Part shown: positions 1,498 to 49,528 of the stretch, piece by piece
Layout of the letters: the number at the start of each line of letters is the position of its first letter
Numbering within the stretch: the stretch's first letter is position 1
DNA from: a virus
Taxonomy: Duplodnaviria; Heunggongvirae; Uroviricota; Caudoviricetes
IMG/VR virus record: IMGVR_UViG_2660238201_000001
Span: 3,579 to 67,578 of that record
Reading direction: 5' to 3' (one strand)
DNA length: 64,000 nt
Translations under genes and position numbers: made by a program
The notes under the pieces: model-generated
What the model saw: the letters and a program-made list of their open reading frames with translations, nothing else
Database searches by the model: none
Told to the model about the DNA's origin: nothing

Positions 1498-1500
1498 AAG

Positions 1501-2898: not shown

Positions 2899-3019
2899 CC
2901 CAAATACTGTACATTTAAACAGTAGTTCTTTGATGAAATGCGGTCAAGTTTGACGGTGGTGGTAATAACTTATTGGTGAAAACAAATTATTTAAGGCCAT
3001 AATAATGGCCTTATCACTG

Positions 3020-4825: not shown

Positions 4826-4928
4826 TGTTTACTTAACTTATTTATTTTCACAGATAAGAAAAGGCAGAAAACAAGTTGTTTAAGGCTATTGATATAGCCT
4901 TAAATTGGTGAAACCAGTTACGACCTCA

Positions 4929-5657: not shown

Positions 5658-5718
5658 GTGTTTTTCCCTCTAAGTAGCGCGTCATTATTCCTACATAAAA
5701 TAAGTATGTAGTTACCTA

Positions 5719-7404
5719 TTATTTTGTGCGTTTGAAGACATACACGCTGACAGTTATCCCCGTGTCATCAAACTCGCCTGTGAACGACTTACCTTTGGCG
5801 TAGACGAAATTATCCAGCATCATCCAGTTCAGTGTTGGTGAGTCCCCCGGCAAAACAGCAACAAGGCGCCCACCGACTTTCAGATGTCCCAGCCCAGCCA
5901 GCGTGTGTTCTTTGTGGCGCCCGAGAGAGTAGGGTGGATTCATGACTATCTTGTCGAAGAGGTATCCTTCATTGTCAGCAGACCACTTCATGAAGTCACA
6001 GCAGACTGTGTTCACGTAGCCTTTTCCAAGAAGGATGTCAGCAAATAGCGGCGCAACCTCAATACAGGTCACGTCCTCAGGATTCGCCTCAATAAACGTA
6101 AGCAGATCTCCGCGACCAGCTTCCGGCTCCAGCAATGTTTCGCCAGATTTCAAGTCAACGACCTTGGCCACGTATTCCGCGATTACGCGAGGGGTAGGGT
6201 AGAACTGATGTGATTTTGCATCCGGGATCAAACCTGTCGCCACAATCGTATTGAGTGTTTGACCGATCTCATACGGGAACTGCCAGTGCTTTTTATCCTG
6301 TACGCCGCCAATGAAGCTCAATGTGCGCTCCAATTCTTCAACCTGCGACTTCTGGAGACTGGAATCAGAGAAGTACCAAACCCCCTTGTCTTTGCTGAAT
6401 CGCCCGTCACGTAAAGTGGATCGAACGGGCTCAGAGATGGTCTTTTGAATGAGGCCAAACTCCTTAGGAGCTCTGGTTTTTGGGGCTGTTCGGCAGGGGG
6501 CTGGTATAGCGGCCGGCATACTGTACGCCAGCACCTCATTAAGCTTCCAGGCAACATCTGGGTGGATCTCAAAATGCACATTACCGTTCTTGAACATTTT
6601 CACGCGCATGAGGTTACCATCCACGTTGATCCAATCACCCGTCTGGCAATCATTTGCCCGGTACGCAGCCGATAGCATCTCTGTTGTGCGGTTAATGGTG
6701 ATGAACTCCTTATGCGCAAAGAAATGCAGCATTACGCGCAGGTCATCGATGTAATCCTCTTTCCGATAGTTCACGCTGACACTATCCCGCCAGAACTCTG
6801 AAATGCAGCTGGCGATGATCAGCCGCTCGCTAAAGCCGTTCGTTTTATTGGTCTTGTGCGCAGGGCTCAGCGCCTTAAACAAACCGTACACGCGCTCAGA
6901 GAGATATTTATGCCTGTCATTCAGCAGATTGACCATCGTGGGGATGACCGTCTCTGCTTTGAACTCAGGTACGCCAACGAACTCCTTAACCTTCATCTGG
7001 TAGCCGGTTCTGTCAGTCTTGATGGTTTCCTGCTTGCCTTCTATGAACTGTTCGCGCCATTCATCTCGGCGGGAAGCTGGCATGATCAGCAGAACGTTTG
7101 TCATATCCGTGACCTTCTTCCAGTATTCGGCCCAGATATTCTGCTTCACCCACTCAAGATCGACCTTATCCAGCCAGGATCTGTTGAAACGAGTGCGTTC
7201 GTCATCCGGCCGGTGGTTGAGTCGAAGCAGGCGGTTAATCATATTGTGACGCTCATCGCCATAAACGAAGTCGTGAACCTGGTGCATGAACGCAATCTCT
7301 TTCTCGCACTCGGCCACGATGTCATGGATGACGTTCATCTCTTTGCTGTGGTCGATACCGGTGTTCGAAGCAAAAGACTCAAGGACAGAAAGCGCTGTAC
7401 TCAT
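5719..7404 (-). CDS. DNA adenine methyltransferase (gamma-class, NPPY) with ~350 aa N-terminal domain of unknown function
   Basis: The C-terminal third has motif I LLEPEAGRGDLL followed by motif IV MNPPYS in gamma-class order. A class-2 motif lies upstream at 7417-7465. Confidence 0.65.
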   Translation of the reverse strand: MSTALSVLESFASNTGIDHSKEMNVIHDIVAECEKEIAFMHQVHDFVYGDERHNMINRLLRLNHRPDDERTRFNRSWLDKVDLEWVKQNIWAEYWKKVTDMTNVLLIMPASRRDEWREQFIEGKQETIKTDRTGYQMKVKEFVGVPEFKAETVIPTMVNLLNDRHKYLSERVYGLFKALSPAHKTNKTNGFSERLIIASCISEFWRDSVSVNYRKEDYIDDLRVMLHFFAHKEFITINRTTEMLSAAYRANDCQTGDWINVDGNLMRVKMFKNGNVHFEIHPDVAWKLNEVLAYSMPAAIPAPCRTAPKTRAPKEFGLIQKTISEPVRSTLRDGRFSKDKGVWYFSDSSLQKSQVEELERTLSFIGGVQDKKHWQFPYEIGQTLNTIVATGLIPDAKSHQFYPTPRVIAEYVAKVVDLKSGETLLEPEAGRGDLLTFIEANPEDVTCIEVAPLFADILLGKGYVNTVCCDFMKWSADNEGYLFDKIVMNPPYSLGRHKEHTLAGLGHLKVGGRLVAVLPGDSPTLNWMMLDNFVYAKGKSFTGEFDDTGITVSVYVFKRTK

Positions 7405-11407: not shown

Positions 11408-12013
11408 TTAAGCAGCCTGTTTCCGTGGTCTTTTTTTCCTGATCACTTTGGCAGGATCGTAACCACCCAGACTTTTCATCACCGTCAGCGGGACTTTATT
11501 CATGAAGTGACCAGCGTTCTGACAGAATCCGCGAAAGACCACCAGCATACTTCCGCCAGGGTTGATATTGACCTCAACCAAACCCAAAGTGACGTCTGGT
11601 TCCATGAACGCTACGCGGCCGCCAGACAGAACTACCGTCTGGTTTGCGCACTCGGTGGCGCGCTCATACCACATCGTGTCGAGCGATTGCGGAATGAGCA
11701 TAACGGTGGTTACACCACGCGCTTGCTCTCGGATAGCCGCCTCTATCCAGGGGGTTATTTTGGAGTAGGGCGGGTTGAGAAAGGCCACCGTACCAGGATC
11801 ACCCCAGCTGGACTTAAGAGCATCTCGTTCCACACCTATGTAGCTCGGAAGAAGCGCGTTTTCTTTGTTACAGGCGACATCAACATCAAACGTAATGCCG
11901 AGATATCGCTGAATGGCGACAAACAACCATTTCGGTGTGCGCCAAAGGTCTCGAAGAGAGGCATCTCGCTCTCGCTTTTTGATTTTTTCGGCTGCTATCA
12001 TTTTACAATCCAA
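11408..12013 (-). CDS. phage-type DNA N6-adenine methyltransferase (Dam family)
   Basis: LWRTPKWLF near the N-terminus and FLNPPYS match the small phage Dam methyltransferase family. Confidence 0.7.
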   Translation of the reverse strand: MDCKMIAAEKIKKRERDASLRDLWRTPKWLFVAIQRYLGITFDVDVACNKENALLPSYIGVERDALKSSWGDPGTVAFLNPPYSKITPWIEAAIREQARGVTTVMLIPQSLDTMWYERATECANQTVVLSGGRVAFMEPDVTLGLVEVNINPGGSMLVVFRGFCQNAGHFMNKVPLTVMKSLGGYDPAKVIRKKRPRKQAA

Positions 12014-26363: not shown

Positions 26364-26858
26364 TCAGCGTGGGTTGCGGAAAAGCAGTTGAGTACCTGTG
26401 GGGCTGGTATCAACAAGGTGAAAACCTCGGCGTTTAAGCATTTCAGCCATTTTTGTCGATTTGACGTAACACTTTGCCATCATTGGTAGTGGTGCGTTTG
26501 AGTCAATCATATCCGACAGGAACATCGAACCATATCCTTTACCCTGCATAGATTTGGTGATACAGAAGGTACGGAGTTCAAGACGTTGATATCCAGCCGG
26601 ATCAATCTCAGGAGTAAACCAGATCAGGCCAATTTTTTTATCGTCTGAACGACGAAGCAGGATGAAGATGAAATGGCCTGACTCACCATTAGCGTCGCGA
26701 ATCTTAATGGCTTCACGCATTTGTTTTTCAAACTTCTTCCCACCGGCTTGCGTGATGATCTCATTTGTAAAGTGACCAAGACGTGCTCCTTCCTCGAATT
26801 CATGCATCAGAAAGGGCATATCAGCCAGAGTAATCTCTCTTGAGTAAAAATCGTCCAT
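26364..26858 (-). CDS. GNAT family N-acetyltransferase
   Basis: Motif A MQGKGYGSMFL (Q/RxxGxG/A) at a GNAT-like length of 164 aa. Confidence 0.55.
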   Translation of the reverse strand: MDDFYSREITLADMPFLMHEFEEGARLGHFTNEIITQAGGKKFEKQMREAIKIRDANGESGHFIFILLRRSDDKKIGLIWFTPEIDPAGYQRLELRTFCITKSMQGKGYGSMFLSDMIDSNAPLPMMAKCYVKSTKMAEMLKRRGFHLVDTSPTGTQLLFRNPR

Positions 26859-26933
26859 ATATCACTCCCTTGGCTTCTCAGATGCATTCTAAGCTACGCT
26901 ATTTTGTATTCGCGTAAAGACCCCTTTGTTCGC

Positions 26934-27578
26934 TTAGGGTTCGTCAGAGAGCTTCTGACGCGCATTTGCGATGCTAAAAACTTCTGCTTTTGGCCGAGGG
27001 TCGACTAAATCGAGTTCTTCTTCGCTGTGATACTCGATATCAAAGTCCCGTTTGATGTGTCTGATGTAAATCGCTGTGAGCAGGCTGTCTTCTTTCAGGA
27101 AGTGGCCATAGGATCGGCGGATCACTTCACCCACTTTTTCGATCTTCTCTCCGCCCATACAGAGGTGATTGAATCGACTGTGCTTTCTCAGCATCTCATC
27201 AACTGGCCCAGAGTAAACTTTATCCACGACACCGAATCGAAGGATCTTCGCAGTATCAGCTTCAACCAGGCAGACAATTTTCCCCTCGGTCAATCTGTCA
27301 CGCCAGGTAACGCCTGAACGCATAGTGTTGAAGTAGGGGGTATCCAGACCGATGATCGGTTTTCGGAATGCCAGCAGCGGTACGTATCTAACACAGCTGT
27401 TCAGGTGGAAGTTAACGCCGGCGTCACGCAACTTGAGTCGGGTCTCGTTGATGTTGCACTTCGAGGCTATGCCACACAGGCTGCAGAGAACCTTCTCGTT
27501 GCTCAGTGTGGAGTTCGATTCTATGGTGTAGGTTCCGTCTTCCAAACGGCGTATCCAACGTGTGCGTTTTAAGTCCAT
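26934..27578 (-). CDS. hypothetical protein (214 aa)
   Basis: ORF immediately adjacent to the origin region. Confidence 0.45.
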   Translation of the reverse strand: MDLKRTRWIRRLEDGTYTIESNSTLSNEKVLCSLCGIASKCNINETRLKLRDAGVNFHLNSCVRYVPLLAFRKPIIGLDTPYFNTMRSGVTWRDRLTEGKIVCLVEADTAKILRFGVVDKVYSGPVDEMLRKHSRFNHLCMGGEKIEKVGEVIRRSYGHFLKEDSLLTAIYIRHIKRDFDIEYHSEEELDLVDPRPKAEVFSIANARQKLSDEP

Positions 27579-27651
27579 GTTCTCGTTTTAGTGATTGTTG
27601 ACCGGAACCACGATAGCTTACTAGGCACATCTGTAATCGCAAATGCCTGTT

Positions 27652-27740
27652 TTACTTATCCACTTATCCACTGGATAGATCCCAATAATAAGATCCCTAT
27701 AACAGATCCCCAAACAGATCCAAAGAGATCCCCGATCGCC
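27652..27740 (+). promoter_or_regulatory. plasmid-type origin element: tandem DnaA boxes + GATC-rich heptamer repeats
   Basis: TTATCCACT occurs twice at 27656-27672, each matching the DnaA-box consensus TTATCCACA at 8/9. It is followed by six GATC sites within 60 bp, five of them in AGATCC(C) heptamers. Confidence 0.6.
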
Positions 27741-27777
27741 GCAGGCCGCGCCACGCCTGGGCTAAGGACTGATCCGT

Positions 27778-27879
27778 GTATGCTGTCAGCGGTAAACGAT
27801 ATGCTGTCAGCGGTACGGTATATGCTGCCAACGGTTTTGTGTATGCTATCAGCGGTAATTGACGTATGCTGTCAGCGGT
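27778..27879 (+). repeat. iteron array A (5 copies, 21-23 bp period)
   Basis: Five direct repeats of (G)TATGCTGTCAGCGGT, two of them degenerate, start at 27779, 27800, 27821, 27842 and 27865. Confidence 0.8.
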
Positions 27880-27899
27880 TAGAACCAAAAGGTATCCAC

Positions 27900-28997
27900 A
27901 TGTCCACAAGAAAGAAAAAAGAGAGCGATATCAAAGAAATACCTGAAGACAACGAAATTCCTGAGGAAGAAGCTCTCACTTTGTACACAGGTGATTTAGT
28001 TCCTAACAGCAACAACACGGTGCAGCCAATCGCTTTAATGCGTCTTGGCCTCTTCGTGCCGACACTCAAAGGAACGAAGAATAGCTCTCGCAACAAGTCC
28101 AACATGATCGACGCATCCAGAGAGCTTGTCCAGCTGGAAGTCGCGCGGTCAGAGGGTTATTCAAACATTAAAATCACCGGTCCTCGACTGGATATGGATC
28201 ATGACTTCAAAACCTGGGTTGGTGTTGTTCGCTCTCTGGCTGAATACGGCGAGCCAACCGGGCGCGTTGAGCTGAGCATCACGAAGTTCGCCAAGTTCTG
28301 CGGCTACCCGTCTTCGCAGATCCGCAAAACCCTGCGAGACCGCCTGACAAACAGCCTGCTCAAGATCATGCGCACGACGTTGTCGTTCCAGCGCACTCAT
28401 GAAGAGAAGAACGTCGACGACACCAACAAGATATCCCTGTTGATGGTTCACCTCATAAACAGCGTTGATTACAACGAGAAGAAAGACTCTATTGTCTTTT
28501 ATGCTGAACCTAAGCTGTCTGAGCTCTATCGCTTTGACCACAAAGTTCTGCTGCAGTTGAAGGTCATCAACAAGCTCCCGCGCAAGGAGACGGCCCAGGC
28601 GCTGTATACTTTCATCGAAAGTCTTCCTCCTAAGCCGGCACCGGTATCTCTTGCCCGGCTGCGCGCCAGGCTCAATCTGAGCACGCGCAACGTCAGTTCG
28701 CAAAACCAGACTATCAGGAACGGATTGAAGTCACTGCAAGAGCTGGGCTATCTCGAATATAGCGAGGTTAAGCGTGGCCGTTCTGTCTACATCCAGATCC
28801 ACAGTCGTAACCCAAAACTGAAAGTAACATCGAGCAAACCTGAGAAGCCAGAGTCGCCTAAGCAGGCAGAAGAAGCGAAGGGTGAAATTGATGCGAAACA
28901 GAACCTCAAAAACAAAATTTCTGAGCTGTCGCAGAACCTGACGCCAGAGAATATCAAGCTGATCGAGATACTTACCAATAGCCTCAAATTGCTTTGA
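27900..28997 (+). CDS. iteron-plasmid replication initiator (Rep) protein
   Basis: A 365-aa plus-strand gene flanked on both sides by iterons. The basic N-terminus MSTRKKK is chosen as start because the upstream in-frame ATGs lie inside iterons. Confidence 0.65.
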   Translation: MSTRKKKESDIKEIPEDNEIPEEEALTLYTGDLVPNSNNTVQPIALMRLGLFVPTLKGTKNSSRNKSNMIDASRELVQLEVARSEGYSNIKITGPRLDMDHDFKTWVGVVRSLAEYGEPTGRVELSITKFAKFCGYPSSQIRKTLRDRLTNSLLKIMRTTLSFQRTHEEKNVDDTNKISLLMVHLINSVDYNEKKDSIVFYAEPKLSELYRFDHKVLLQLKVINKLPRKETAQALYTFIESLPPKPAPVSLARLRARLNLSTRNVSSQNQTIRNGLKSLQELGYLEYSEVKRGRSVYIQIHSRNPKLKVTSSKPEKPESPKQAEEAKGEIDAKQNLKNKISELSQNLTPENIKLIEILTNSLKLL

Positions 28998-29264
28998 TAC
29001 GCTGTCAGCGGTTCAACATATGCTGTCAGCGGTTCTTTTGTCTCAATGTATGCTGTCAGCGGTAAAACGTATGCTGTCAGCGGTACATTTCCACTATCTG
29101 CGGTCTTTATAAATCGACATGGCTAACGTCTAAGAGCAACTGCTGCCCTATAAATGTATGCTGTCAGCGGTGAAAGATATGCTGTCAGCGGTAAAACGTA
29201 TGCTGTGAGCGGTACAAGGTATGCTGCCAGCGGTAATTCACTGGCAACGTATGCTGTGAGCGGT
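28997..29264 (+). repeat. iteron array B (9 copies in two clusters)
   Basis: The repeat (G)TATGCTGTCAGCGGT starts at 28998, 29019, 29049, 29070, 29156, 29178, 29199, 29220 and 29250. Spacing is 21, 22 or 30 bp. The array ends in the palindrome aattcagcactgaatt. Confidence 0.8.
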
Positions 29265-29448
29265 AATTCAGCACTGAATTAGATATCCTGAAAACGGGCG
29301 ACGCAGCCATTGATTTGCGCCAGGCCCGTGTAGATAACAATATGGCTTCCCCAGTGGTCACTAACCTGCTAACCCGCATGAATGCTAGGTTAGTGGTTAC
29401 TAATAATTGTTATTCCACCACACTCATAACGCTCTACAGAAACATCGG

Positions 29449-29661
29449 TTAGTGGATCTGCTTGAGCAAACCCCAAAGCGTTTGTGCTTTCGATGTAAGT
29501 TTCCCCGTTTCAGGATCAAACATGCGCCACTCCCGACGCTGGTGGATGATGTAACCGTCTTCGCGTTCCAGACGCTCCAGCATGTCCGGTTTTCGGAAGC
29601 CTTTCGCTCTCCAGTAGCCGCTTGTTTTCTCAATCTCAAGACCAGTCATTGTGAGAGCCAT
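29449..29661 (-). CDS. hypothetical protein (70 aa)
   Basis: Small ORF. Confidence 0.3.
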   Translation of the reverse strand: MALTMTGLEIEKTSGYWRAKGFRKPDMLERLEREDGYIIHQRREWRMFDPETGKLTSKAQTLWGLLKQIH

Positions 29662-29996
29662 TAACCAACCTCCTTACATCCGTCGAAAAAGAAACTTTGG
29701 TTTTTGCTATGAACGCCGTAGACGTCGTGGGATTTGTTGTAGATAAGCTCGTCCTCGCCAACGCCAACCAATTTACCGTTGCGTTTAGCCAGATATGGAG
29801 ATGAGAGAACATCATCGCCGCGGACGACATAGAACTGATCTCCGCTATCAACGACCAGCGCGCCGAAGTCAGCTTTAGTAGGTCTGCTGATTTGATCATT
29901 TTTCACCTGCGATACGGTCATATCGCATTGGTAAATCCGGGTATCCGCCAGCAGAGAAAAGGAGAGGGCGGCCAGCAGAAGCGTTATTTTTCTCAT
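29661..29996 (-). CDS. secreted/periplasmic hypothetical protein
   Basis: N-terminal signal peptide MRKITLLLAALSFSLLA. It is ATGA-coupled to a 57-codon membrane ORF at about 30000-30172. Confidence 0.45.
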   Translation of the reverse strand: MRKITLLLAALSFSLLADTRIYQCDMTVSQVKNDQISRPTKADFGALVVDSGDQFYVVRGDDVLSSPYLAKRNGKLVGVGEDELIYNKSHDVYGVHSKNQSFFFDGCKEVG

Positions 29997-30530
29997 ACCA
30001 CTATCCCTGTGTAGACCTGTGCTGTAGAGGTGACGACCAGCACCAGTGCGAGCATGTTCACAGTGGTTCCGTTGACAGGAGACAGAGCTTTCTTGAGTGT
30101 CCCGATCATCAGGCAGTCCAACATAAACAGTATTGAAAAGATGAGTAACAGGATATCTATGTATATCTTCATAATAGGTAAATACTAACTTATATATTTT
30201 GAGCTGTAAATGACTACGGAAGAGCGCTAAGGCCAGGGCTCGCTAAAGATGGCGAGCCCAGAGCCATTCACCATAAGCAGTGGCTAAGCATCAATTTCAG
30301 TACTGGCAGATATCCAAACTAATATTCTCATGTGTTTCTCCTTTTTGGTGTATGTACTTACTTATTATTATGATCGAGAGAAGGGGAGCAATCGTCCTGT
30401 TCAGGTGATGGCTCATCTATTAGAGCAATGACCTCGCGCAGCTGAGCGGCCCATTCAGGCTCAGGTAAGCCTTGGGCGATTTCTGCGTCGATAACATCGA
30501 GCGCGGCATTGGCCGCATCCCAGAGCCTCT

Positions 30531-32709: not shown

Positions 32710-35055
32710 TTACTCGATGGTTTCTGTAGAGCCAGAAGACAGGTCTTTAGCTCGACGTTCGTCGATGGTCTGTAGCGCCGCAATGATCTCCGGAAGGGGC
32801 TTATCACGATACATATCGACGATCTGCGATTTGGTGTATTTCTTGTCGCCAATCTCTACGCGGCCGCTGGCATTTTTTGGCAGGTATCCTTCTTCGAGCA
32901 TGTGCTCAACCAGTGACTCGATAACGTCCAGACCGCGGGTCGGGTCGAAGTAGAATTTCCATGAGCATTTGCCGAATGGCGGTGCCACTTTGTTTTTGAT
33001 GCACTCGGCGCCAACGTCCTGACCGATCTTATCTTTGCCATCCTTCATGACAGAAGCGCCAAGACGAATACGTACTGAGGCGTAGAACTTCGGAGAATCA
33101 CCACCAGGGGAGGTGGTCGGATCGCCAAACATCACGCCGATTTTTGTACGAACCTGGTTAAGGAAAATAATGCAGGCATTGTACTTGCGCGCCCATAGCG
33201 CCAGCGTTGGAAAGTTGGCGCTCGTGGCGCGAGCCAGGGCCGTATTATCGTTCATGTTTAGCTGATCTTTATCCTTCGCTGTACCTTCCGCCATTTTGTC
33301 GAACTTCTCGGCTTTGGAGTTTGGCACCATTGACGCAAGGGAGTCGGCTACGATGCAAATAGGGGCGTCTGCGGGGATCAGCTCTTCGTCCCGCACCAGT
33401 TTCAGGATGGTGCCGATCAGCTCAACCGATTCTTCGAACGTGTCCGGCTGCTTATAGACCCACTGGCCGTCATCCTCATCCGCATTCAGCCCGTTTGCCA
33501 CCGCCAGACCAACGTCAAAGCTGTTTTCGTGGTCGAGGAATACAGCCAGACCCTCCTGTTTCTGAGCGGAGACCATGGCGGCCGTCGCCAGGAATGTGTT
33601 GTGGCTGATAATCCCGTTAGACCAGAAAGAGTGTGTTTCCGGCATCGCTACGTCGAACGTTGGTGCTTCACCTTCCTCAATAGCCACGACTTCGTCGTAG
33701 AACAAGTTAGAGTCAATTACCGCTGCCAGTTGTGCAAACAGATGCTCGTTAAAACGATTCTTTCTGCCAATGAAGGAGACATAGATTTCTCGCAGTTTGT
33801 CTATTCCGACACGATCGCCGCGGCCAATAACGTGATCTACCAGAACGTAGTCTTTACGAGAGGTCTTGGTGAGTGACTCGTAGAGTGATTTCACTAAGCC
33901 GCTGATGTGCGGAACGTAGCCTAAATAAGTGCGGTCAAAACTAATGTCCCGTTTGGTTGCCACTGCTAAACGAGCCGGAGACTCGAACCCAATCGTTGAC
34001 AGGAAAAGGTCGTAGTTAGAGCCACTGAATGACAGCCGGTAATATATGTTTTTATAACCTGCGACGTGTTTTTCAGAGATAGTTGACGTAATCCCCAGAT
34101 TCAGGAGCATGAGGCGAATTTGCTGTAGCAGCAGCCCACTCGCGCTCACAACCTCAATGCAGCGACCATCATTGACGTGGCATTCCAGCTCAAAGTAGCC
34201 GCGAAGGAATGCAATTTGAGCCTCGCTATTGGCGCGACGCACACTCAACGGAACCTGCTTGCCAGCAGCTTTCTCATACTCCAGACCATATTCTTTAAAA
34301 AGCAGCGAACGCACCTCTTTGCTAAACAGCACATGGTCTTCCGAGCCGTTATGTTTTCTCGTAACTGGCATCTTGTCTGATACCAGCGAAATGAGGCGGT
34401 AGTACTCATCCTTGATGAATGGATCTGTGTTAGAAAAATGCACAGAATTTTCAGAGGCCACGTATCCGTCAGCAATTAAATAGCCCATCAGTTTTGCGAT
34501 ATTGGCATCCAAGTGCTGATCGCCGAATTGATGTGTGCCAACCATTGAAGGAATCGTGTCGCCTACACTGATTTTTTCAGCATACCGCCAGACGATATTG
34601 CCTAAGTCGTCAACCACACGAATTGGGTGACGGAACGTAGCCTCGATGTAACCCCCTGATGCCAGCTTAATGCGCTTGAATTTGCGACGGTTGTTCCATG
34701 TCAGGTGTGAGGTCTTCTCTATCACGCCATTTTCATTGATGAGTCCAACGTTATGCTCTACATCGCGAGTAGTGCATGTTGCTTTGTGCCCCTCAATCTC
34801 AAACAGTTCTTTCACTGTTACCATTCCACGCTCCGTCAGCAGCATGGTGTCTGCGGTAACACATTTCCCCGCACTTGGCGGCCCAAAGATCTCAACGATA
34901 CGTCCGCTTGGGAAACCGCCGTCATAGCGCCCGGAGATGGCTTTATTCAGCGGAGGGAAGCCGGAATCAATCCAGTGTGAAACCTTTTGGATCTCGTCAT
35001 TGCTGCCGATTTTCTTTTTTAATGCCATTGCCAGTGCTGATTTTCCTTTTGCCAT
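32710..35055 (-). CDS. RecA-family recombinase (RecA/UvsX-like) precursor containing an intein
   Basis: Exteins of 64 and 295 aa together give 359 aa. They include Walker A GPPSAGK|T and the RecA-like core VFLDHENSFD. Confidence 0.8.
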   Translation of the reverse strand: MAKGKSALAMALKKKIGSNDEIQKVSHWIDSGFPPLNKAISGRYDGGFPSGRIVEIFGPPSAGKCVTADTMLLTERGMVTVKELFEIEGHKATCTTRDVEHNVGLINENGVIEKTSHLTWNNRRKFKRIKLASGGYIEATFRHPIRVVDDLGNIVWRYAEKISVGDTIPSMVGTHQFGDQHLDANIAKLMGYLIADGYVASENSVHFSNTDPFIKDEYYRLISLVSDKMPVTRKHNGSEDHVLFSKEVRSLLFKEYGLEYEKAAGKQVPLSVRRANSEAQIAFLRGYFELECHVNDGRCIEVVSASGLLLQQIRLMLLNLGITSTISEKHVAGYKNIYYRLSFSGSNYDLFLSTIGFESPARLAVATKRDISFDRTYLGYVPHISGLVKSLYESLTKTSRKDYVLVDHVIGRGDRVGIDKLREIYVSFIGRKNRFNEHLFAQLAAVIDSNLFYDEVVAIEEGEAPTFDVAMPETHSFWSNGIISHNTFLATAAMVSAQKQEGLAVFLDHENSFDVGLAVANGLNADEDDGQWVYKQPDTFEESVELIGTILKLVRDEELIPADAPICIVADSLASMVPNSKAEKFDKMAEGTAKDKDQLNMNDNTALARATSANFPTLALWARKYNACIIFLNQVRTKIGVMFGDPTTSPGGDSPKFYASVRIRLGASVMKDGKDKIGQDVGAECIKNKVAPPFGKCSWKFYFDPTRGLDVIESLVEHMLEEGYLPKNASGRVEIGDKKYTKSQIVDMYRDKPLPEIIAALQTIDERRAKDLSSGSTETIE
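33598..34863 (-). mobile_element. intein with LAGLIDADG homing-endonuclease domain (422 aa)
   Basis: It starts with Cys immediately after GPPSAGK and ends in SHN, with +1 Thr. The LAGLIDADG block LMGYLIADGY is internal. Confidence 0.75.
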
Positions 35056-38963: not shown

Positions 38964-39407
38964 TTATGCTACTTTTTTACCGAATATGTTTGATAGAGTG
39001 ACTCTGGTCTGCCTCTTAAGCCGGTATCTTCTGACGTCGCCTATCTTGCTCACCTCCATGAACTCCTTGGCCACCTTCAGGACAAGACGGGCACGGAACG
39101 CTTTAAATGAAGCCAGCTCTTCTTCTGGTTTGTCAGATTCATAAATCTCCAGCAGATATTGGCACGCCTTTGGATCTTGCGTTTTTAATGCCAGCGCACG
39201 CGCGCATTTCCGTAATCGACAAATAGGGTCGGCGCCATCCTGCTTTGCAAACGCCAATGCCAGATCGAGCGTGACAGGGCAGTCAATGATTTCCCAGAAC
39301 TGTGATCGCAGAGTAGCTTCAATCGCCTTCTCCTGAAACTCCTGTGGTATTGCTGTGAGCTCTTGTGCAATTTTATCCGCTGCGCTCATGTGTTTTCCTT
39401 TATTCAT
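38964..39407 (-). CDS. hypothetical protein (147 aa)
   Basis: ORF coupled to dnaE part B. Confidence 0.4.
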   Translation of the reverse strand: MNKGKHMSAADKIAQELTAIPQEFQEKAIEATLRSQFWEIIDCPVTLDLALAFAKQDGADPICRLRKCARALALKTQDPKACQYLLEIYESDKPEEELASFKAFRARLVLKVAKEFMEVSKIGDVRRYRLKRQTRVTLSNIFGKKVA

Positions 39408-40573
39408 TTGTTAATAGTCTCCGCTACCTCTGCCAGAATGGCTTCCAGCTTTTCTCCTTCCTCTGGACGGAAGTACAAAATATTCGGGTTAAATCCATAG
39501 AACACGGTCACGTCCAGGTCTGGCAGATATTCTTTGCGCCCAACAAGATCGGATGGCTTGCTCTTGTTATTGAACAGCGATGTCGCCCGGCTGCCGCACG
39601 TCAGCACGTAGGTTGGACGAACCAGATTTATCTCTTCCCGCATAAAGTCGATAAACTGGCCGATCTCATCTTTGGTGTAGTCTTTTTCCTTATCCTTTAC
39701 CTTTTTACACACGCCAGTGACATACAAATCACCCATACGCAGGTCACCAGAAACCAGCAACTTGGCTTTGAAGTCATCGTAGCCGTTCTCCATGAAGTAG
39801 CCGGTACGTGCATCATTGCCATTGGCATTGTCGAGTATGACCATAATTTTTGGCTTAATGCCGATGCTTGGTCGTATCAACTCATCGCCCAGACCCATTT
39901 CTGCGGCCATGCGAGTCATCAGTACATTGACCTCTGCAGAGCGTTTTGGGTTCATTTCAAATGGGCGTGTAGCTTTCACCGCATCGATCACCAGATTGCC
40001 CATCAGCTCTGCCTGATCTCGCAGACGTTCCGGATCGGTCGCCGGCATACTGCCAGGTTCAATAGAGGCGAATGCCCCAACCTTTTGCAGAGACTCACGT
40101 ACTCGGCTGTTACAGGCTCGCTTCTCGACCGCTTCCTCAAATTGCGCCAGCGACTCGAATTTGCCGCCAACTTTCTCACGCGCTCTCATGATGGCCTGGC
40201 AACCATTCTCAGAGCAGCCTTTCACAGCAGAGAATGGCGCATACAGAACCTGGCTGCCGTCTTCCAGCGTGCGGATCTCAATTCGGTTAGATGACACGTT
40301 AACGTCTGGTGGCAATACGCGAATGCCATAGGTCAGCGCATCCTTAACCAGCCCCTGGTGCTTATCCTCGCCCAGAATGGTGAGAGCAGCAGCGAAGAAC
40401 TCAGCAGGGTAATGTGTCTTTAACCACATAGACTGATAGCTGATCAGCGAGTAGGCAACGGAGTGTGATTTGTTGAAGGCATATCCACCGAACTTCTCAA
40501 AGGCGTCCCATACTTCTTGGGCTTTCTCAGGGCTAAGACCTTCCTGCTCGGAAATAACTTTGGCAATTTTCAT
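39404..40573 (-). CDS. dnaE: DNA polymerase III alpha (DnaE-like), C-terminal segment
   Basis: Begins just before the fingers motif GGYAFNKSHSVAYSLISYQSMWLKTHYPAEF. Confidence 0.8.
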   Translation of the reverse strand: MKIAKVISEQEGLSPEKAQEVWDAFEKFGGYAFNKSHSVAYSLISYQSMWLKTHYPAEFFAAALTILGEDKHQGLVKDALTYGIRVLPPDVNVSSNRIEIRTLEDGSQVLYAPFSAVKGCSENGCQAIMRAREKVGGKFESLAQFEEAVEKRACNSRVRESLQKVGAFASIEPGSMPATDPERLRDQAELMGNLVIDAVKATRPFEMNPKRSAEVNVLMTRMAAEMGLGDELIRPSIGIKPKIMVILDNANGNDARTGYFMENGYDDFKAKLLVSGDLRMGDLYVTGVCKKVKDKEKDYTKDEIGQFIDFMREEINLVRPTYVLTCGSRATSLFNNKSKPSDLVGRKEYLPDLDVTVFYGFNPNILYFRPEEGEKLEAILAEVAETINK

Positions 40574-40594
40574 GTGTTTTTCCCGTCATTAGCT

Positions 40595-41296
40595 TCAAAC
40601 GCTAGCTTTTTTTAAGATATTTGCGATTTGAGTGTTAGAGATGCCGAATTTTTCTCGCAACTTTTCATAGGTTGCGCCAGCCTTGCGCAAGGCGACCACC
40701 TCAGCTCTTGCTTCAGCATCCAGTTTTTTGGATGCTCTTGAGACAACGATCGGCCCACCAACTCGTGCCCATTTCTTCCCGGTGACGATATGGTGAATGT
40801 AAAGCTCAGTTAAACCATATTCGGCCGCGAGATCTTTGTTCAGAGCGCCTTCTGACTTTTTAATGCGAATAGCAATGACGACTTCGTTGGTTAGCTTGGC
40901 GTTGTAGCGCCTCTCACCAAACTCAACGGTATCGTGTGCAATGGCGTCAGCCATGTTGTCGACTTGAGTGCCATACGCGAGATTGGAGAGCGCATTGTTT
41001 GATGGTCTTCCGTCAAGATGACGAATAAGTAAGCCTTCTGGTCGTTCTCCGTGGAATGCAGTTGCTACCAGATAATGGACTGTGCGGTCGCATTTGACGC
41101 CGTTGACGCTTAGTTTCACGCCCAGATGTCCAAAATCATTGATTACGCGAGGTTTGAGGATTTGCCCCTTCTTCACCCATTCGCCCCCATTGGGGGCTGT
41201 TCGTATAACATCTAAAGAGCGAATGCGACCTAAACTGGATGCTTCGTAATAACCTTCAAACTCAGGAATGGATTTCCAAATTTCTTCCACCGTCAA
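40595..41296 (-). CDS. HNH homing endonuclease (NUMOD4 + HNH_3 + C-terminal HTH)
   Basis: WKSIPEFEGYYEASSLGRIRSL matches NUMOD4 and HYLVATAFHG...RHLDGRPSNNALSNL matches HNH. Its ATG forms an ATGA overlap with the dnaE part A stop. Confidence 0.75.
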   Translation of the reverse strand: MTVEEIWKSIPEFEGYYEASSLGRIRSLDVIRTAPNGGEWVKKGQILKPRVINDFGHLGVKLSVNGVKCDRTVHYLVATAFHGERPEGLLIRHLDGRPSNNALSNLAYGTQVDNMADAIAHDTVEFGERRYNAKLTNEVVIAIRIKKSEGALNKDLAAEYGLTELYIHHIVTGKKWARVGGPIVVSRASKKLDAEARAEVVALRKAGATYEKLREKFGISNTQIANILKKASV

Positions 41297-43656
41297 ACTC
41301 CAAAATCAACAATATCAGCGTTATCACCAATCGCTTCGTCATAGGTTCTGCGTTTGCCGTCAGAGCACATCAGCTTGGCCTTTTTGTGGACTTCTACTGT
41401 GCTTCCGTTTTCAAGTGACAGTGTCACCCAACCTGCTTGCGCTCGTTCTACAAAATCGCTGCCGATCGCTTTCATCTTATCCATGTTCTTTTTACCGATA
41501 GCGGAACGCAGAGCGTCAGCCTCAGCCATAGAGAATCCAGCGAGTACGCGAGAGCTTTTCATGATCTGCTCTTGATAGAGTAAAACGCCGTTGGTTTCTT
41601 TAGTTGCTTCCTCAAGACGCGGATGAATTGAATGTGGAGCCATAAAACCTTTTGCCACGGAGACATAGTCGTCCAACATGCCTGACTGAATTGGACCTGG
41701 TCTGAAAAGCGCAGTTGTGGCCACAATGGTTTTGAAGCTCATTGGCTCGATACCACCACCCAGATCTTTGAGTAGCTTCCTCATGGGGCCGGACTCAAGC
41801 TGGAACACACCTTGCGTATACCCCGCGGCGAATCCATCAAGTACTTTGCGATCATCCAGTGGGATGGCATCGAGGTTGATGTCCTTGCCGGTGCTCTCTT
41901 TGATGTAACGTTTTGCGCTATCCAGCAGATCGAGAGTGGCCAGGCCCAGAACGTCCAGTTTGATTAACCCCATGGCCTCGCAGTATCGTTTATCGAATGC
42001 GATGCAACGCGCGTCTCCACGTCGCTCTACAGGGGTACGTTCCGTCAGAGGTACGCCAGCGACAATCACCCCTGCAGCATGACGGCCGAAGCCACGCATC
42101 AGGTTTTGCAACTTGCTCGCCGCCTTAAATGCGTCCGGATGTTTGGTGGCGTATTTGTCCAGGCTGGCCAGCTGCTCGCGCAACTCCGACAGAGACAGAC
42201 TGTCATCCTCCAGGGTCTTAAGCTCCTTGGAAACCGCCATATCAGCCGCATCAACGCCATAAATACGTGCTGTGTCGCGCAGCGCGGAAGCGGCGCCCAG
42301 ATAAGTGAAGTTCGGAATGCCTGCAACATACTCTTCGCCATATCGGGCATTCAGATACTCGATCACCTCATGGCGCCGCGCCTGGCTAAAGTCCAGATCA
42401 GCATCCGGCAAGTCGAGACGTTCAGGGTTAATGAAACGTTCGAACAGCAGGCCATGACGGATAGGGTCAACGTTGGTAATGCCGATGCACCATGCCACCA
42501 GAGAGCCGGCGGATGAACCACGACCTGGCCCGACCGGAATACCTGTCTCGCGACTATGATTCATCAGATCGCGAACCATCAGGAAATAACCGCAGAATCC
42601 CAGGCGAGTGAGCGTTTCCATTTCATACTTGAGGCGATCGACGTAAACGCGGTGCTCGGAAGCTGGTGGCGTGTAGCCAAATTCTTTGTTGCTGAGACGT
42701 TTTCGAAGCCCTGCGACAGCCAGTTTCATCAACGTTGCAGGCTCATCGTCTGCCATTTTTGGCAGCGCCGGCGCCATCTCGTGCCAGCGCCATTCGCACG
42801 CCTTAACGATGGAGTCTTGCGTTGTAGAAGCCATGGCGGCAGATACAGATACGCCCATCCGGACAGAAAACTCTTTCAGAGCCTGCAGCAGATGACGGCG
42901 ACCATTTATTGCATTGTCGCGCTGGTGGGGGATACGCAGCCGGTGTGGCTGATCGACTTTGATATTGTTCATCACCATGTGGGCGATGTCTTTGATGTCA
43001 GCGTCATCAACCCCTTCGTAATAAGCTGGGTAAAACGCAACGGGCTCGATTTTCAGTGCGCTTGCCACTTTCATGGCTCGCACGTTGATCTGGTCATAGA
43101 ATGGCGTAGGGTGCGGATAAACTACGCTGTAGAAATTCTCGCGTCCGCCGGCAGTAATCAGCGCGCTAATAATTTTAGCGAAGTCCGGGCGCTGGAATAC
43201 GCTGCCGATATCCGAAGTCAGCAACAGTATATTGCCTTTAGCGTAAGTAGCCGCCAGCTGTTCGAGCGCCAGGCGTGGTACGAAGTAAAACTGCTCGCGT
43301 GTATTGGCTAAAGTCATTAGTTCGCAAATGTCGCGATAACCTTGCTCGTTTTTAATCAGTGCGGTGAAGCAGTAGTTACGTCCACGCTCCAATGATTCCA
43401 TACATCCATTAGACTCTTTGGCCAGTTTAGCCCGGTACTCGTATGTTGGATCGTCGACAACATTCAGCTTAACACCACAGATCACCGCCATCTCATCGCC
43501 AGCTGCTCGCTGCAGGGGGATAACGCTGGCGATATTCATCGTGTCAGCAGAGATAACCGCGGTATAGCCAGCCTCCTTTGCTACCTTTACTGCGTGCTCT
43601 GCTTTCAGTGCTGATTCTCCCAGGGAAAAATCAGTCCTGACCATCAGTGCTTTCAT
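41293..43656 (-). CDS. dnaE: DNA polymerase III alpha (DnaE-like), N-terminal segment (PHP + palm)
   Basis: PHP-domain N-terminus and palm motif PVGPGRGSSAGSLVAWCIGITNVDP. The last ~45 aa (VTLSLENGSTVEV...DFGV) have no counterpart in DnaE. Confidence 0.85.
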   Translation of the reverse strand: MKALMVRTDFSLGESALKAEHAVKVAKEAGYTAVISADTMNIASVIPLQRAAGDEMAVICGVKLNVVDDPTYEYRAKLAKESNGCMESLERGRNYCFTALIKNEQGYRDICELMTLANTREQFYFVPRLALEQLAATYAKGNILLLTSDIGSVFQRPDFAKIISALITAGGRENFYSVVYPHPTPFYDQINVRAMKVASALKIEPVAFYPAYYEGVDDADIKDIAHMVMNNIKVDQPHRLRIPHQRDNAINGRRHLLQALKEFSVRMGVSVSAAMASTTQDSIVKACEWRWHEMAPALPKMADDEPATLMKLAVAGLRKRLSNKEFGYTPPASEHRVYVDRLKYEMETLTRLGFCGYFLMVRDLMNHSRETGIPVGPGRGSSAGSLVAWCIGITNVDPIRHGLLFERFINPERLDLPDADLDFSQARRHEVIEYLNARYGEEYVAGIPNFTYLGAASALRDTARIYGVDAADMAVSKELKTLEDDSLSLSELREQLASLDKYATKHPDAFKAASKLQNLMRGFGRHAAGVIVAGVPLTERTPVERRGDARCIAFDKRYCEAMGLIKLDVLGLATLDLLDSAKRYIKESTGKDINLDAIPLDDRKVLDGFAAGYTQGVFQLESGPMRKLLKDLGGGIEPMSFKTIVATTALFRPGPIQSGMLDDYVSVAKGFMAPHSIHPRLEEATKETNGVLLYQEQIMKSSRVLAGFSMAEADALRSAIGKKNMDKMKAIGSDFVERAQAGWVTLSLENGSTVEVHKKAKLMCSDGKRRTYDEAIGDNADIVDFGV

Positions 43657-48052: not shown

Positions 48053-48433
48053 ATGACAATGGCCGATGAGAAGACCGCTCGTTACGTCGCCTACATCGAT
48101 TCTTTAATCACTGTTTCGCCGAAAAGTCAGTCGGCGATCTCCCGTGAGATTGGTTACAAGAATCCCAACATTTTGTCCCTGATAAAAAAGGGAAGAATTC
48201 CGCTGCCGGTAGAGAAAGTGCTACCACTGGCAGAAGCACTGAATGCAGACCCAGTACGTCTCATGATGATGGTTCTTGAAGACCGTCAGCCTGAGCTGGC
48301 AGATTTTTTACGAGACCAGGGCATCGCGCCGCTGACTCCGGAAGAACGTGAGGTTCTCGCAGCTTTCCGCAACCGCTTTCCGGCTCAAACTGATGGTGTT
48401 GAGCAGGTTGTCGAAGCAATTAAAAAGCTATGA
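48053..48433 (+). CDS. HTH transcriptional regulator (XRE-like)
   Basis: SQSAISREIGYKNPNILSLIKKG has helix-turn-helix character. A palindromic motif lies upstream at 48006-48030. Confidence 0.5.
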   Translation: MTMADEKTARYVAYIDSLITVSPKSQSAISREIGYKNPNILSLIKKGRIPLPVEKVLPLAEALNADPVRLMMMVLEDRQPELADFLRDQGIAPLTPEEREVLAAFRNRFPAQTDGVEQVVEAIKKL

Positions 48434-49528
48434 GAAGTTTACTCTGATCAGCTCGGTGGATAGGCGATCTCCCTTCATTTTGTGGTCAATTTCTTCTAAA
48501 TCTGGTTGCTCAACAATCGACGAGATGTACGATGAGAAGCTCTCAAGGGCTTCTCGCATCTGATCCATGTAGTCATATCGGTCGTATACACGGTCGATAC
48601 CTTCCAGACTATGATTCATGATCTTACGTGATACTTCCTGTGAAATATTAAGGGCAGGAAAGTAGCTGCGTGCCGTTCTACGCAGATCACGTGGGGTAAA
48701 CGACTCCACATCCCCCAGCTCCGGCCGCTCCAGAATCCGCCTCAACGCCTGGGCTATTGCCACCTTTGACATTGGCGTATCAGCTTTCTTTTTGTTCGAC
48801 GGGACGAGCCACTGGCTGCCGGCGCCATAATCAATCAATTCTTCTACGCACTTCCGCATCAGTGAGCTCATCGGAAGGGTGTGCGACCGGGCCGATTTGT
48901 TGCGAGATCCTTGATTCCATACATTTAGCTTAAGGTCGAACTCGCTTACTCTGGCCCGCAGCACTTCATCTGGACGCCTGGCAGCTACGAGGCAAAGCCT
49001 TGCCGCCCATTTCGTTCCCGGACATACGTCGAAATAGTCCCAGACATTCCAGAATACCCAAACCTCTGCGTCCGTCAGGCATCGTTCCCGCGGGGCCGTC
49101 TTCGCGCCGCCGGCAACTTTGTTCAGCGATATATCATTCAGGGGCGATGTTTCGATAATCCCCTGGAAGGCACACCATCCCAGGAACTGCTTCATGATGG
49201 AAAAAACACGGCGCCCCATCACGATCTTCCCTTCTAGGATCAGCGGGTTGACCAGCTGATTCACCATTATTCTATTCAGGTTACTTACTTTTTCCTGAGC
49301 GATATGCGGGAGAACATGTATCAAAACACAATGGACAGCTATCTCGGGCCGGCGGCGAGTTATCAATAATGATAAGCGAGTGAATAACATGAATGCGTCG
49401 GCGAAAGTCAGATCGGCGCCCTGCATCGAGACCGACCTGGCATCCATCTGCGATGCTCGATCCAGATAGGTGATCGCTTCCTGTGACGTGTTTTCCGCTG
49501 CGCGTGCTCTGTCAAACGTGTTTTTCAT
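48428..49528 (-). CDS. tyrosine recombinase / integrase
   Basis: Catalytic-domain remnants RPDEVLRARVSEF, FTPRDLRRTARSYF and LNHS..GIDRVYDRYDY give an R..R..Y layout. Confidence 0.7.
   Translation of the reverse strand: MKNTFDRARAAENTSQEAITYLDRASQMDARSVSMQGADLTFADAFMLFTRLSLLITRRRPEIAVHCVLIHVLPHIAQEKVSNLNRIMVNQLVNPLILEGKIVMGRRVFSIMKQFLGWCAFQGIIETSPLNDISLNKVAGGAKTAPRERCLTDAEVWVFWNVWDYFDVCPGTKWAARLCLVAARRPDEVLRARVSEFDLKLNVWNQGSRNKSARSHTLPMSSLMRKCVEELIDYGAGSQWLVPSNKKKADTPMSKVAIAQALRRILERPELGDVESFTPRDLRRTARSYFPALNISQEVSRKIMNHSLEGIDRVYDRYDYMDQMREALESFSSYISSIVEQPDLEEIDHKMKGDRLSTELIRVNFS

What the first reader, a model, noticed from the sequence alone, without database searches (positions are those of the whole stretch)
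27640..29290. Complete P1/F-style iteron replicon (DnaA boxes - GATC heptamers - 5 iterons - rep - 9 iterons) embedded in a lytic-phage-like genome
The architecture is visible directly in the sequence. Two tandem DnaA boxes are followed by six GATC sites within 60 bp, five of them in AGATCC(C) heptamers. Next come five 21-23 bp-spaced iterons with core TATGCTGTCAGCGGT, then a 365-aa basic Rep gene, then nine more copies of the same iteron. This is the oriR/incC-repA-incA logic of P1, F and other low-copy plasmids, with Dam-methylation sensing at the origin. It argues that the element replicates as a plasmid prophage. Combined with the ParA operon and the T4-like dNTP/replication genes, the gene content fits SSU5/pHCM2-type phage-plasmids. 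The iteron sequence itself and the 30-bp spacing irregularities splitting array B into 4+5 are not something I can match to a described replicon.
Basis: partly seen in the sequence, partly recalled or inferred. Interest (0 to 1): 0.7.

Follow-up and report, generated by a model that had tools for sequence, protein, structure and literature searches.

The report
P1-type iteron replicon of Klebsiella phage-plasmid
This is the plasmid-maintenance origin and initiator gene of a common Klebsiella phage-plasmid, a clear relative of the classic phage P1 plasmid replicon; it is real and complete, but its replicon type is already catalogued.

Summary
There are two tandem DnaA boxes (27656-27672) and five AGATCC heptamers plus a sixth GATC (27677-27737). 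A GC-rich spacer follows, then five direct iterons spaced 21/21/21/23 bp (27779-27879). Next come a 365-aa basic Rep (27900-28997) and nine more direct iterons (28998-29264).

Rep is a homologue of P1/P7 RepA (42% identity, E 9e-65) and SSU5 RepA (53%). It matches Pfam Rep3_N, and its predicted fold matches RepE and RctB. The DnaA-box/GATC/GC-spacer half of the origin is 80% identical in nucleotide sequence to P1 oriR.

The region is 99-100% identical to more than 300 Klebsiella plasmids of about 110 kb typed IncFIB. Its repA is 97.2% identical to pKPHS1, so it belongs to the named IncFIB(pKPHS1)/"IncpKPHS1" replicon of the pKpn group of SSU5-like phage-plasmids.

Two corrections apply. The 4+5 split of the downstream array comes from an 87-bp interval holding decayed iterons, not from the 30-bp spacings. 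And the replicon does match a described one.

New detail: in 42 related loci the origin array never changes, while the downstream array has 8-12 iterons.

Verdict: already known, low interest.

The parts
27656..27672 (+). Two tandem DnaA boxes (TTATCCAC-TTATCCACT), at the outer end of the origin
   Evidence: They align with the annotated 18-bp DnaA binding site of P1 oriR. The window has one base fewer between the boxes than P1.
27677..27737 (+). Five AGATCC(C/A) heptamers plus GATCG, giving six Dam (GATC) sites in 60 bp. Inferred to be the methylation-sensing region, and the unwinding region by analogy with P1.
   Evidence: six GATC in 60 bp, at most 3 elsewhere in the window, and 0 of 200 shuffles reach 6. 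The heptamers align with the P1 heptamers and annotated Dam sites. GC content is 42%.
27738..27778 (+). GC-rich spacer (about 74% GC), including GCAGGCCGCGCCACG, which is identical in P1 oriR
27779..27879 (+). Origin iteron array (incC equivalent): five direct iterons, core TATGCTGTCAGCGGT, spaced 21, 21, 21, 23 bp
   Evidence: The number and spacing are the same in about 40 related loci. P1 incC has five iterons spaced 21, 21, 21, 22.
27825..27885 (+). Zone holding the candidate rep promoters. Candidates are CTGCCA-16-TGcTATCAG (27825-27852) and TTGACG-15-TAGAAC (27859-27885). Both overlap iterons and neither is strong.
   Evidence: The upstream gene is divergent, so the promoter must lie within 27579-27899. 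In P1, PrepA lies inside incC. This part is inferred, not shown.
27892..27900 (+). DnaA-box-like GTATCCACA overlapping the rep start codon
   Evidence: P1 (CTATCCACA) and JK004 (TTATCCACA) have a box between incC and repA.
27900..28997 (+). rep (repA): a 365-aa basic initiator of the RepFIB/P1 RepA family
   Evidence: Pfam Rep3_N, 35.6 bits against a cut-off of 22.4. tblastn to P1/P7 RepA gives E 9e-65. The AF2 model matches RctB domains 2-3 and RepE. The RefSeq start at 27780 lies inside iteron 1 and is probably an artefact.
28998..29264 (+). Downstream iteron array (incA equivalent): nine direct iterons arranged 4+5, starting directly after the rep stop codon
   Evidence: P1 incA starts at the repA stop codon and has nine iterons. 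Related loci have 8-12 iterons here.
29085..29156 (+). Non-iteron stretch that splits incA; it looks like decayed iterons (CACTATCTGCGGT, CTGCTGCC)
   Evidence: PhiR41_1 has an intact extra iteron at this position.

Best explanation
This is the low-copy plasmid replicon of a Klebsiella SSU5-like phage-plasmid (pKpn group; replicon type IncFIB(pKPHS1), also called IncpKPHS1). It is a homologue of the P1 oriR-repA-incA replicon and most likely works the same way. Rep monomers bind the five phased origin iterons. Host DnaA binds the tandem boxes at the outer end. The two together open the adjacent heptamer region and load the host helicase. The six GATC sites make initiation depend on full Dam methylation and allow SeqA to sequester the newly replicated, hemimethylated origin. 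Rep represses its own promoter, which must lie within the origin/iteron region. The nine downstream iterons hold copy number down by titrating Rep and pairing with origin iterons (handcuffing). What is shown here is the anatomy, its homology to P1, and its conservation. The binding, opening, methylation dependence, autorepression and copy control are inferred from P1 and other iteron plasmids.
For: - Rep is homologous to P1/P7 RepA (42% identity over 278 aa, E 9e-65) and to SSU5 RepA. More than 5000 RepFIB-type plasmids carry a relative.
- Rep passes the Pfam Rep3_N (WH1) threshold. The AF2 model matches RctB domains 2-3, RepE and a WH1 domain, E 7e-8 to 1e-3.
- The origin's left half (27650-27778) is 80% identical to P1 oriR, while the rep core is only 57% identical at nucleotide level.
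- The element order and counts match the P1 annotation: DnaA site, Dam sites, 5 iterons, repA, then 9 iterons from the stop codon.
- Among 42 complete related loci, nearly all have exactly five origin iterons spaced 21, 21, 21, 23; three score four at the mismatch cut-off used. The downstream array has 8-12 iterons in several spacing patterns. This fits a geometry-constrained origin and a dose-type control locus.
- The region is 95-100% identical in more than 300 circular Klebsiella plasmids typed IncFIB. Its repA is 97.2% identical to that of pKPHS1, which has the same 5+9 layout.
- Each IncpKPHS1 plasmid carries only this one replicon, and one of them (p11219-CTXM) was established in E. coli TOP10 by electroporation (PMC6735626).
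- General iteron-replicon mechanisms are reviewed in PMC6312765 and PMC6090056.
Against: - No experiment on this particular replicon could be found or read. No minimal-replicon cloning, Rep-iteron binding, or dam/dnaA dependence has been reported in what I could access.
- No convincing sigma-70 promoter for rep could be identified.
- All nine downstream iterons are direct, whereas six of the nine in P1 are inverted. Rep also carries N- and C-terminal extensions that P1 RepA lacks. Control details may therefore differ.
- The element also encodes phage-type replication proteins: a DnaB-like helicase, a primase and DnaE.
Confidence: 0.9

Rival explanations
1. The replicon is a conserved but non-essential or vestigial module. 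In this view the element is maintained in lysogeny by its phage-type replication machinery (DnaB-like helicase, primase, Pol III alpha, gp32-like SSB) from some other origin.
For: The window encodes a DnaB-like helicase (58976-60316), a primase-like protein (57705-58829), a split DnaE and a gp32-like protein. No direct functional test of this replicon could be read.
Against: The origin geometry is essentially invariant across about 40 related loci, and Rep is intact in hundreds of plasmids, which points to purifying selection. Published surveys report a single plasmid-type replicon per element (PMC6735626). In P1, the homologous module is the prophage replicon, while lytic replication uses a separate origin (established knowledge of P1).
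Confidence: 0.05
2. The repeats are operators of an unrelated regulator, or they are attachment sites (attL/attR) of an integrated prophage, as two of them are labelled in GenBank record MZ779062.
For: The pJN2-26 record labels two 20-bp repeats flanking rep as attR and attL.
Against: There are 14 copies, not 2. They flank a RepA homologue at the same positions as the RepA-binding iterons of P1. The att labels coincide with iterons. That paper annotated the element with RAST-tk, BLAST and PHASTER, so the labels are probably output of an automated prophage finder. The element is a free circular plasmid.
Confidence: 0.02
3. It is a P1-type replicon whose methylation control relies on the element's own Dam-family methyltransferase (11408-12013) rather than on host Dam. 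That would make origin firing partly independent of the host.
For: An ORF with a strong Pfam PF05869 (Dam) match, E 2.5e-35, lies 16 kb from the origin. The origin keeps all five GATC heptamers plus one further GATC.
Against: The specificity of this methyltransferase was not tested here. Enterobacterial hosts have their own Dam (established knowledge). P1 oriR needs only host Dam.
Confidence: 0.1

Closest known systems
Phage P1/P7 plasmid replicon (oriR-incC-repA-incA)
   Same: RepA is homologous (42% identity, E 9e-65). Both have tandem DnaA boxes at the outer end, five GATC-type heptamers plus GATCG, and a GC-rich spacer; this left half is 80% identical in sequence. Both have five origin iterons about 21 bp apart, and nine downstream iterons beginning at the rep stop codon.
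   Different: The iteron sequence differs (TATGCTGTCAGCGGT here, ATGTGTGCTGGAGGG in P1). All nine downstream iterons are direct and spaced 21-30 bp with one 87-bp gap; P1 has 3 direct and 6 inverted, spaced 30-41 bp. Rep is 365 aa against 286 aa, with an acidic N-terminal extension and a helical C-terminal extension. The leader between the last iteron and the ATG is 20 nt against 56 nt. parAB is not adjacent: ParA lies 33 kb away and is a small 221-aa type.
IncFIB(pKPHS1) / 'IncpKPHS1' replicon of Klebsiella pKpn-group phage-plasmids (pKPHS1, pCP020063, pJN2-26, ST13-OXA48phi12.3)
   Same: It is the same replicon. The 1.7-kb region is 99.9% identical to pCP020063. repA is 97.2% identical to pKPHS1, which has the identical 5+9 iteron layout.
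   Different: None of substance. The published description is incomplete: it reports four iterons downstream of repA and no known domain (PMC6735626). Database records start rep inside iteron 1.
Salmonella phage SSU5 / pHCM2-type replicon
   Same: The location in the backbone is the same; the flanking proteins are 67-81% identical and of equal length. RepA is homologous (48-53% identity), and iterons lie on both sides of rep.
   Different: The iterons are different (core CCACTGTAG). The SSU5 origin keeps only one DnaA-like box and three intact GATC heptamers, and its left half is 61% identical. The SSU5 downstream iterons have mixed orientation.
RepFIB replicons of IncF plasmids (E. coli pO157-type, Klebsiella IncFIB(K))
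   Same: Rep is homologous (about 47% identity, E about 1e-85). A DnaA box and a GATC cluster lie upstream of rep, with repeats on both sides.
   Different: The iteron sequences and arrangement differ. The hosts are conjugative or virulence plasmids, not phage-plasmids.

Membership tests
P1-type (RepFIB-family) iteron replicon | The initiator is homologous to P1 RepA | tested here: met
   tblastn gives 42% identity over residues 32-309, E 9e-65, to P1 and P7 RepA.
P1-type (RepFIB-family) iteron replicon | Tandem DnaA boxes at the outer end of the origin | tested here: met
   TTATCCAC-TTATCCACT at 27656-27672 aligns with the annotated DnaA site of P1.
P1-type (RepFIB-family) iteron replicon | A cluster of GATC-containing heptamers between the DnaA boxes and the iterons | tested here: met
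   Five AGATCC heptamers plus GATCG lie in 60 bp and align with the P1 heptamers and Dam sites.
P1-type (RepFIB-family) iteron replicon | Five direct origin iterons phased about two helical turns apart, upstream of rep | tested here: met
   Spacing is 21, 21, 21, 23 here and 21, 21, 21, 22 in P1. It is essentially invariant in about 40 related loci.
P1-type (RepFIB-family) iteron replicon | The rep promoter is embedded in the origin iterons (autorepression) | tested here: inconclusive
   The promoter must lie within 27579-27899 because the upstream gene is divergent. Only weak sigma-70 candidates overlap the iterons.
P1-type (RepFIB-family) iteron replicon | A second, downstream iteron array (incA) acting as the copy-control locus | tested here: met
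   Nine iterons begin directly after the stop codon, as in P1. Their orientation differs (all direct). The control function itself cannot be tested here.
P1-type (RepFIB-family) iteron replicon | A parAB partition operon immediately downstream of incA (true of P1 itself, not of the wider family) | tested here: not met
   The downstream neighbours are small minus-strand ORFs. ParA is at 62544-63209.
P1-type (RepFIB-family) iteron replicon | Rep binds the iterons; replication depends on DnaA, Dam and the DnaK/DnaJ chaperones | not testable with these tools
   This needs EMSA or footprinting, and mini-replicon tests in mutant hosts.
Rep3 / WH1-WH2 iteron initiators (RepE, Pi, pPS10 RepA, RctB core) | A Pfam Rep3_N (WH1) match above the curated threshold | tested here: met
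   35.6 bits against a cut-off of 22.4, E 1.4e-8.
Rep3 / WH1-WH2 iteron initiators (RepE, Pi, pPS10 RepA, RctB core) | A fold of two winged-helix domains | tested here: met
   The AF2 model has mean pLDDT 70, and most 10-residue blocks across residues 70-305 average 75-91. Foldseek hits are RctB domains 2-3 (E 7e-8), RepE (E 2e-5) and a WH1 domain. TM-scores are only 0.36-0.53. A sequence-only search of PDB found nothing.
IncpKPHS1 / IncFIB(pKPHS1) incompatibility group | repA more than 96% identical in nucleotide sequence to repA of pKPHS1, with an SSU5-like backbone (PMC6735626) | tested here: met
   repA is 97.2% identical over the annotated 1218 nt, with the same 5+9 iterons. The region is 99.9% identical to the listed member pCP020063. 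Backbone synteny was confirmed.
IncpKPHS1 / IncFIB(pKPHS1) incompatibility group | Actual incompatibility with pKPHS1-type plasmids | not testable with these tools
   This needs co-residence experiments.

The most novel reading that the evidence does not exclude
The origin has two halves that evolve differently. The host-interface half (DnaA boxes, Dam heptamers, GC spacer) is kept nearly P1-identical at 80%. The specificity half (iterons plus Rep) has diverged to a new incompatibility type inside an otherwise SSU5-like backbone. The downstream control array changes quickly, with 8-12 iterons and at least five spacing patterns among close relatives. That variation could give natural copy-number variants of the phage-plasmid, which would matter for the dosage of the resistance genes these elements sometimes carry.
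Probability: 0.35. Interest if true: 0.35.

Novelty: already known. Interest (0 to 1): 0.15.

Why it matters
The main value is for annotation and epidemiology. These phage-plasmids of about 110 kb are very common in clinical Klebsiella and sometimes carry ESBL or carbapenemase genes.

A correct map of the replicon improves on what is in the databases and the one published description. The correct layout is 5+9 iterons, DnaA boxes, Dam heptamers and a rep start at 27900. Current records start rep inside iteron 1 (a 405-aa product), label two iterons as attL/attR, or report only four iterons.

The contrast between a fixed origin array and a variable control array gives a simple, testable link between iteron number and copy number. 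The biology itself is the textbook P1 paradigm.

Tried and rejected
- NCBIfam scan of Rep: no hit.
- Sequence-only PDB search with Rep: only chance hits with E above 0.3. Fold comparison was needed to reach RepE and RctB.
- Strict promoter/terminator scan of 27500-29700: no + strand promoter. A relaxed script gave only weak candidates.
- Rfam at E up to 1 on 26500-30500: nothing.
- Search for inverted half-iterons, which would indicate an F/pPS10-type dimer operator: none of 7 nt or more in 27501-29500.
- The inverted repeat at 29353-29403 as an RNA or terminator: folding z is only about -2 and it occurs once in the window. Left unexplained.
- The idea that the iterons are att sites, as in record MZ779062: rejected.
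- The P1 genome paper (PMC523184) is not held. The 2026 bioRxiv preprint on phage-plasmid heteroresistance appears in searches with 41 mentions of repA, but its text could not be opened.
- The supplement of PMC6735626 with the published iteron motif is not held.
Full report
**1. Observation**

- Two DnaA boxes, TTATCCACT, lie at 27656-27664 and 27664-27672. Each matches TTATCCACA at 8 of 9 positions, and they share one T.
- Single boxes at this stringency are no more frequent in the window than chance (13 found, 12.6 expected). What counts is the tandem arrangement and its position.
- Five AGATCC heptamers start at 27677, 27691, 27704, 27716 and 27726. A sixth GATC is at 27734 and a seventh at 27771.
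- Six GATC in 60 bp is unique in the window. The maximum elsewhere is 3, and none of 200 shuffles reached 6.
- A spacer of about 74% GC follows.
- The 15-nt core TATGCTGTCAGCGGT occurs 14 times with at most 2 mismatches, always on the + strand. Allowing 3 mismatches gives 17 matches in the window against 1.5 expected, and 0 of 100 shuffles reached that.
- Five copies lie at 27779-27879, spaced 21, 21, 21, 23. Nine lie at 28998-29264, spaced 21, 30, 21, 87, 21, 21, 21, 30.
- The ORF between the two arrays runs from ATG 27900 to the stop at 28997. It encodes 365 aa with pI 9.5.

One detail in the finding is wrong. The 4+5 split comes from the 87-bp interval, not from the 30-bp spacings. The intervening DNA (29085-29156) looks like decayed iterons, and the E. 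coli relative PhiR41_1 has an intact extra iteron at that place.

**2. What it is**

The 1.7-kb region is 95-100% identical to 312 plasmid records. These are almost all Klebsiella pneumoniae, about 110 kb, non-mobilizable and typed IncFIB. The region covers 80% or more of the query in 328 records. It also matches six deposited 'Klebsiella phage' genomes, including ST13-OXA48phi12.3, vB_Kpn_1825-KPC53 and pJN2-26.

repA is 97.2% identical to repA of pKPHS1, which has the same 5+9 iteron layout. That meets the published criterion of more than 96% for the 'IncpKPHS1' group (PMC6735626). The same replicon is the PlasmidFinder target IncFIB(pKPHS1) (PMC9241755). Pfeifer et al. place such Klebsiella elements in the pKpn group of the SSU5 supergroup of phage-plasmids, most of which type as IncFIB (PMC7969092).

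The window's gene content fits this. It encodes nrdAB, thyA, dfr, a gp32-like SSB, RecA, DnaE, a DnaB-like helicase, a primase, a tyrosine recombinase, and ParA at 62544-63209. The genes on both sides of rep have the same lengths as SSU5_070, 068 and 067 and are 67-81% identical to them.

**3. The initiator**

- Rep passes the Pfam Rep3_N (WH1) threshold, 35.6 against 22.4 bits.
- It is 53% identical to SSU5 RepA and 42% identical to P1/P7 RepA over residues 32-309 (E 9e-65).
- It is about 47% identical to the RepFIB initiators of E. coli, Salmonella and Klebsiella IncF plasmids. More than 5000 plasmid records carry a relative.
- An AlphaFold2 model was built from a 36-sequence alignment. Mean pLDDT is 70, and most of residues 70-305 scores 75-91.
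- The model's best solved-structure matches are RctB domains 2-3 (E 7e-8), RepE of F (E 2e-5), a Rep-ssDNA complex and an isolated WH1 domain. This is the two-winged-helix initiator fold. TM-scores are moderate (0.36-0.53).
- Compared with the 286-aa P1 RepA, Rep has a 31-aa acidic N-terminal extension. It also has a 56-aa C-terminal extension with two predicted helices. The function of these extensions is unknown.
- RefSeq and GenBank records start the gene at ATG 27780, inside iteron 1, giving 405 aa. The extra 40 residues are translated iterons, and relatives such as PhiR41_1 are annotated from the equivalent of 27900. I take 27900 as the start.

**4. The origin is homologous to P1 oriR**

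The GenBank annotation of P1 (AF234172) lists the following in order: an 18-bp DnaA site, five Dam sites, five incC iterons (spaced 21, 21, 21, 22) with PrepA inside them, repA, and nine incA iterons starting at the repA stop codon. The window has the same order and the same counts.

The left half (27650-27778) aligns base for base with P1 at 104 of 130 positions, or 80%. The shared sequence includes TTATCCACTGGATAGATCC and GCAGGCCGCGCCACG. The rep core is only 57% identical at nucleotide level.

The same left half is 75% identical in PhiR41_1, 73% in the P1-like Cronobacter phage JK004, and 61% in SSU5. SSU5 has lost one DnaA box and two of its heptamers have lost the GATC. RepFIB replicons of pO157 and of IncFIB(K) plasmids also have a DnaA box and a GATC cluster upstream of rep.

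So the host-interface part of the origin is conserved across the family, while the iterons change together with Rep:
- relatives with about 80-88% Rep identity keep TATGCTGTCAGCG;
- a relative at 61% identity has ATCTATTCTGTAG;
- SSU5 has CCACTGTAG;
- P1 has TGTGTGCTGGAGG.

**5. Differences from P1**

- All nine downstream iterons are direct. In P1 three are direct and six inverted.
- The spacings are shorter.
- The leader between the last iteron and the ATG is only 20 nt. It carries a DnaA-box-like GTATCCACA that overlaps the start codon.
- parAB is not adjacent.
- There are no inverted half-iterons that could act as an F/pPS10-type dimer operator. This fits P1-type autorepression through the direct iterons.
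- I could not identify a convincing rep promoter, although it must lie within 27579-27899 because the upstream gene is divergent.

**6. Population view**

A scan of IMG/VR for the exact iteron returned more than 118 stretches. In 42 loci with a complete replicon, the origin array almost always has five iterons spaced 21, 21, 21, 23; three loci score four at the mismatch cut-off. The downstream array has 8, 9, 10, 11 or 12 iterons, falls into at least five spacing patterns, and is always direct. The window's pattern occurs in six of these loci. pJN2-26 differs from the window by a clean 21-bp deletion of one iteron. This is what one expects if origin geometry is essential and the downstream array acts by dose.

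**7. Mechanism (inferred)**

By homology with P1 and the general iteron-plasmid model (PMC6312765, PMC6090056), the likely sequence is as follows.
- Rep monomers occupy the five origin iterons.
- DnaA binds the tandem boxes.
- The heptamer region opens and the host helicase is loaded.
- Full Dam methylation of the GATC sites is needed for firing, and hemimethylated DNA is sequestered by SeqA.
- Rep represses its own transcription.
- The downstream iterons titrate Rep and handcuff the origin, which keeps copy number low.

None of these steps has been tested for this replicon in anything I could read. The nearest experimental support is that an IncpKPHS1 plasmid, with this as its only replicon, was established in E. 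coli TOP10 by electroporation (PMC6735626). The element also encodes its own Dam-family methyltransferase (PF05869), which might contribute to origin methylation.

**8. Verdict**

The replicon is already in databases and typing schemes and is a plain homologue of a textbook system, so novelty is 'already known' and interest is low.

The useful by-products are a corrected anatomy and the fixed-origin, variable-control-array pattern. The literature reports only four iterons and 'no known domain'. Database records mis-start rep, and one record labels iterons as att sites.

Noticed in passing
window 32710-35055 (-): The RecA-like gene is interrupted by an intein carrying a LAGLIDADG homing endonuclease, giving a 781-aa ORF that matches Pfam RecA, Intein_splicing and LAGLIDADG_3. 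The closely related plasmid pCAVP50-112 has an uninterrupted recA of 1077 nt.
   Followed up: partly
window 39404-43656 (-): The Pol III alpha (dnaE) gene is split in two. The N-terminal part is at 41293-43656 and the C-terminal part at 39404-40573. Between them sits an HNH_3/NUMOD4 homing-endonuclease ORF at 40595-41296. In pCAVP50-112, dnaE is a single 3519-nt gene.
   Followed up: partly
window 11408-12013 (-): The element encodes its own Dam-family N6-adenine methyltransferase (Pfam PF05869, E 2.5e-35). This could matter for the GATC-rich origin. Its specificity is not known.
   Followed up: partly
window 29353-29403: An inverted repeat, CCAGTGGTCACTAACC ... GGTTAGTGGTTACTAA, lies just past the downstream iterons. 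Similar sequence occurs near the replicon in SSU5 (L003, about 2625-2690, opposite orientation) and inside the iteron array of PhiR41_1. There is no Rfam match, folding z is about -2, and it occurs once in the window. Function unknown.
   Followed up: partly
window 27780-27899; L004 2677-2696 and 3947-3966: Two annotation artefacts appear in public records. RefSeq starts rep at an ATG inside iteron 1 (a 405-aa product whose first 40 residues are translated iterons). GenBank MZ779062 labels two iterons as attR and attL.
   Followed up: yes
window 62182-63209 (-): The partition operon (a small 221-aa ParA plus a 120-aa downstream ORF) lies 33 kb from the replicon. In P1, and in a Rosenbergiella relative (L011), parAB sits next to rep.
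   Followed up: partly
L003 (SSU5) 1130-1210: The SSU5 origin has only one DnaA-like box. Two of its heptamers have lost the GATC (AGAACC, AGACCC). SSU5 may therefore depend less on Dam than P1 or the Klebsiella element.
   Followed up: no
window 48428-49528 (-) and about 1-7400: A tyrosine recombinase (Phage_integrase) is present and could act as a dimer resolvase. [quoted passage not shown]
   Followed up: no
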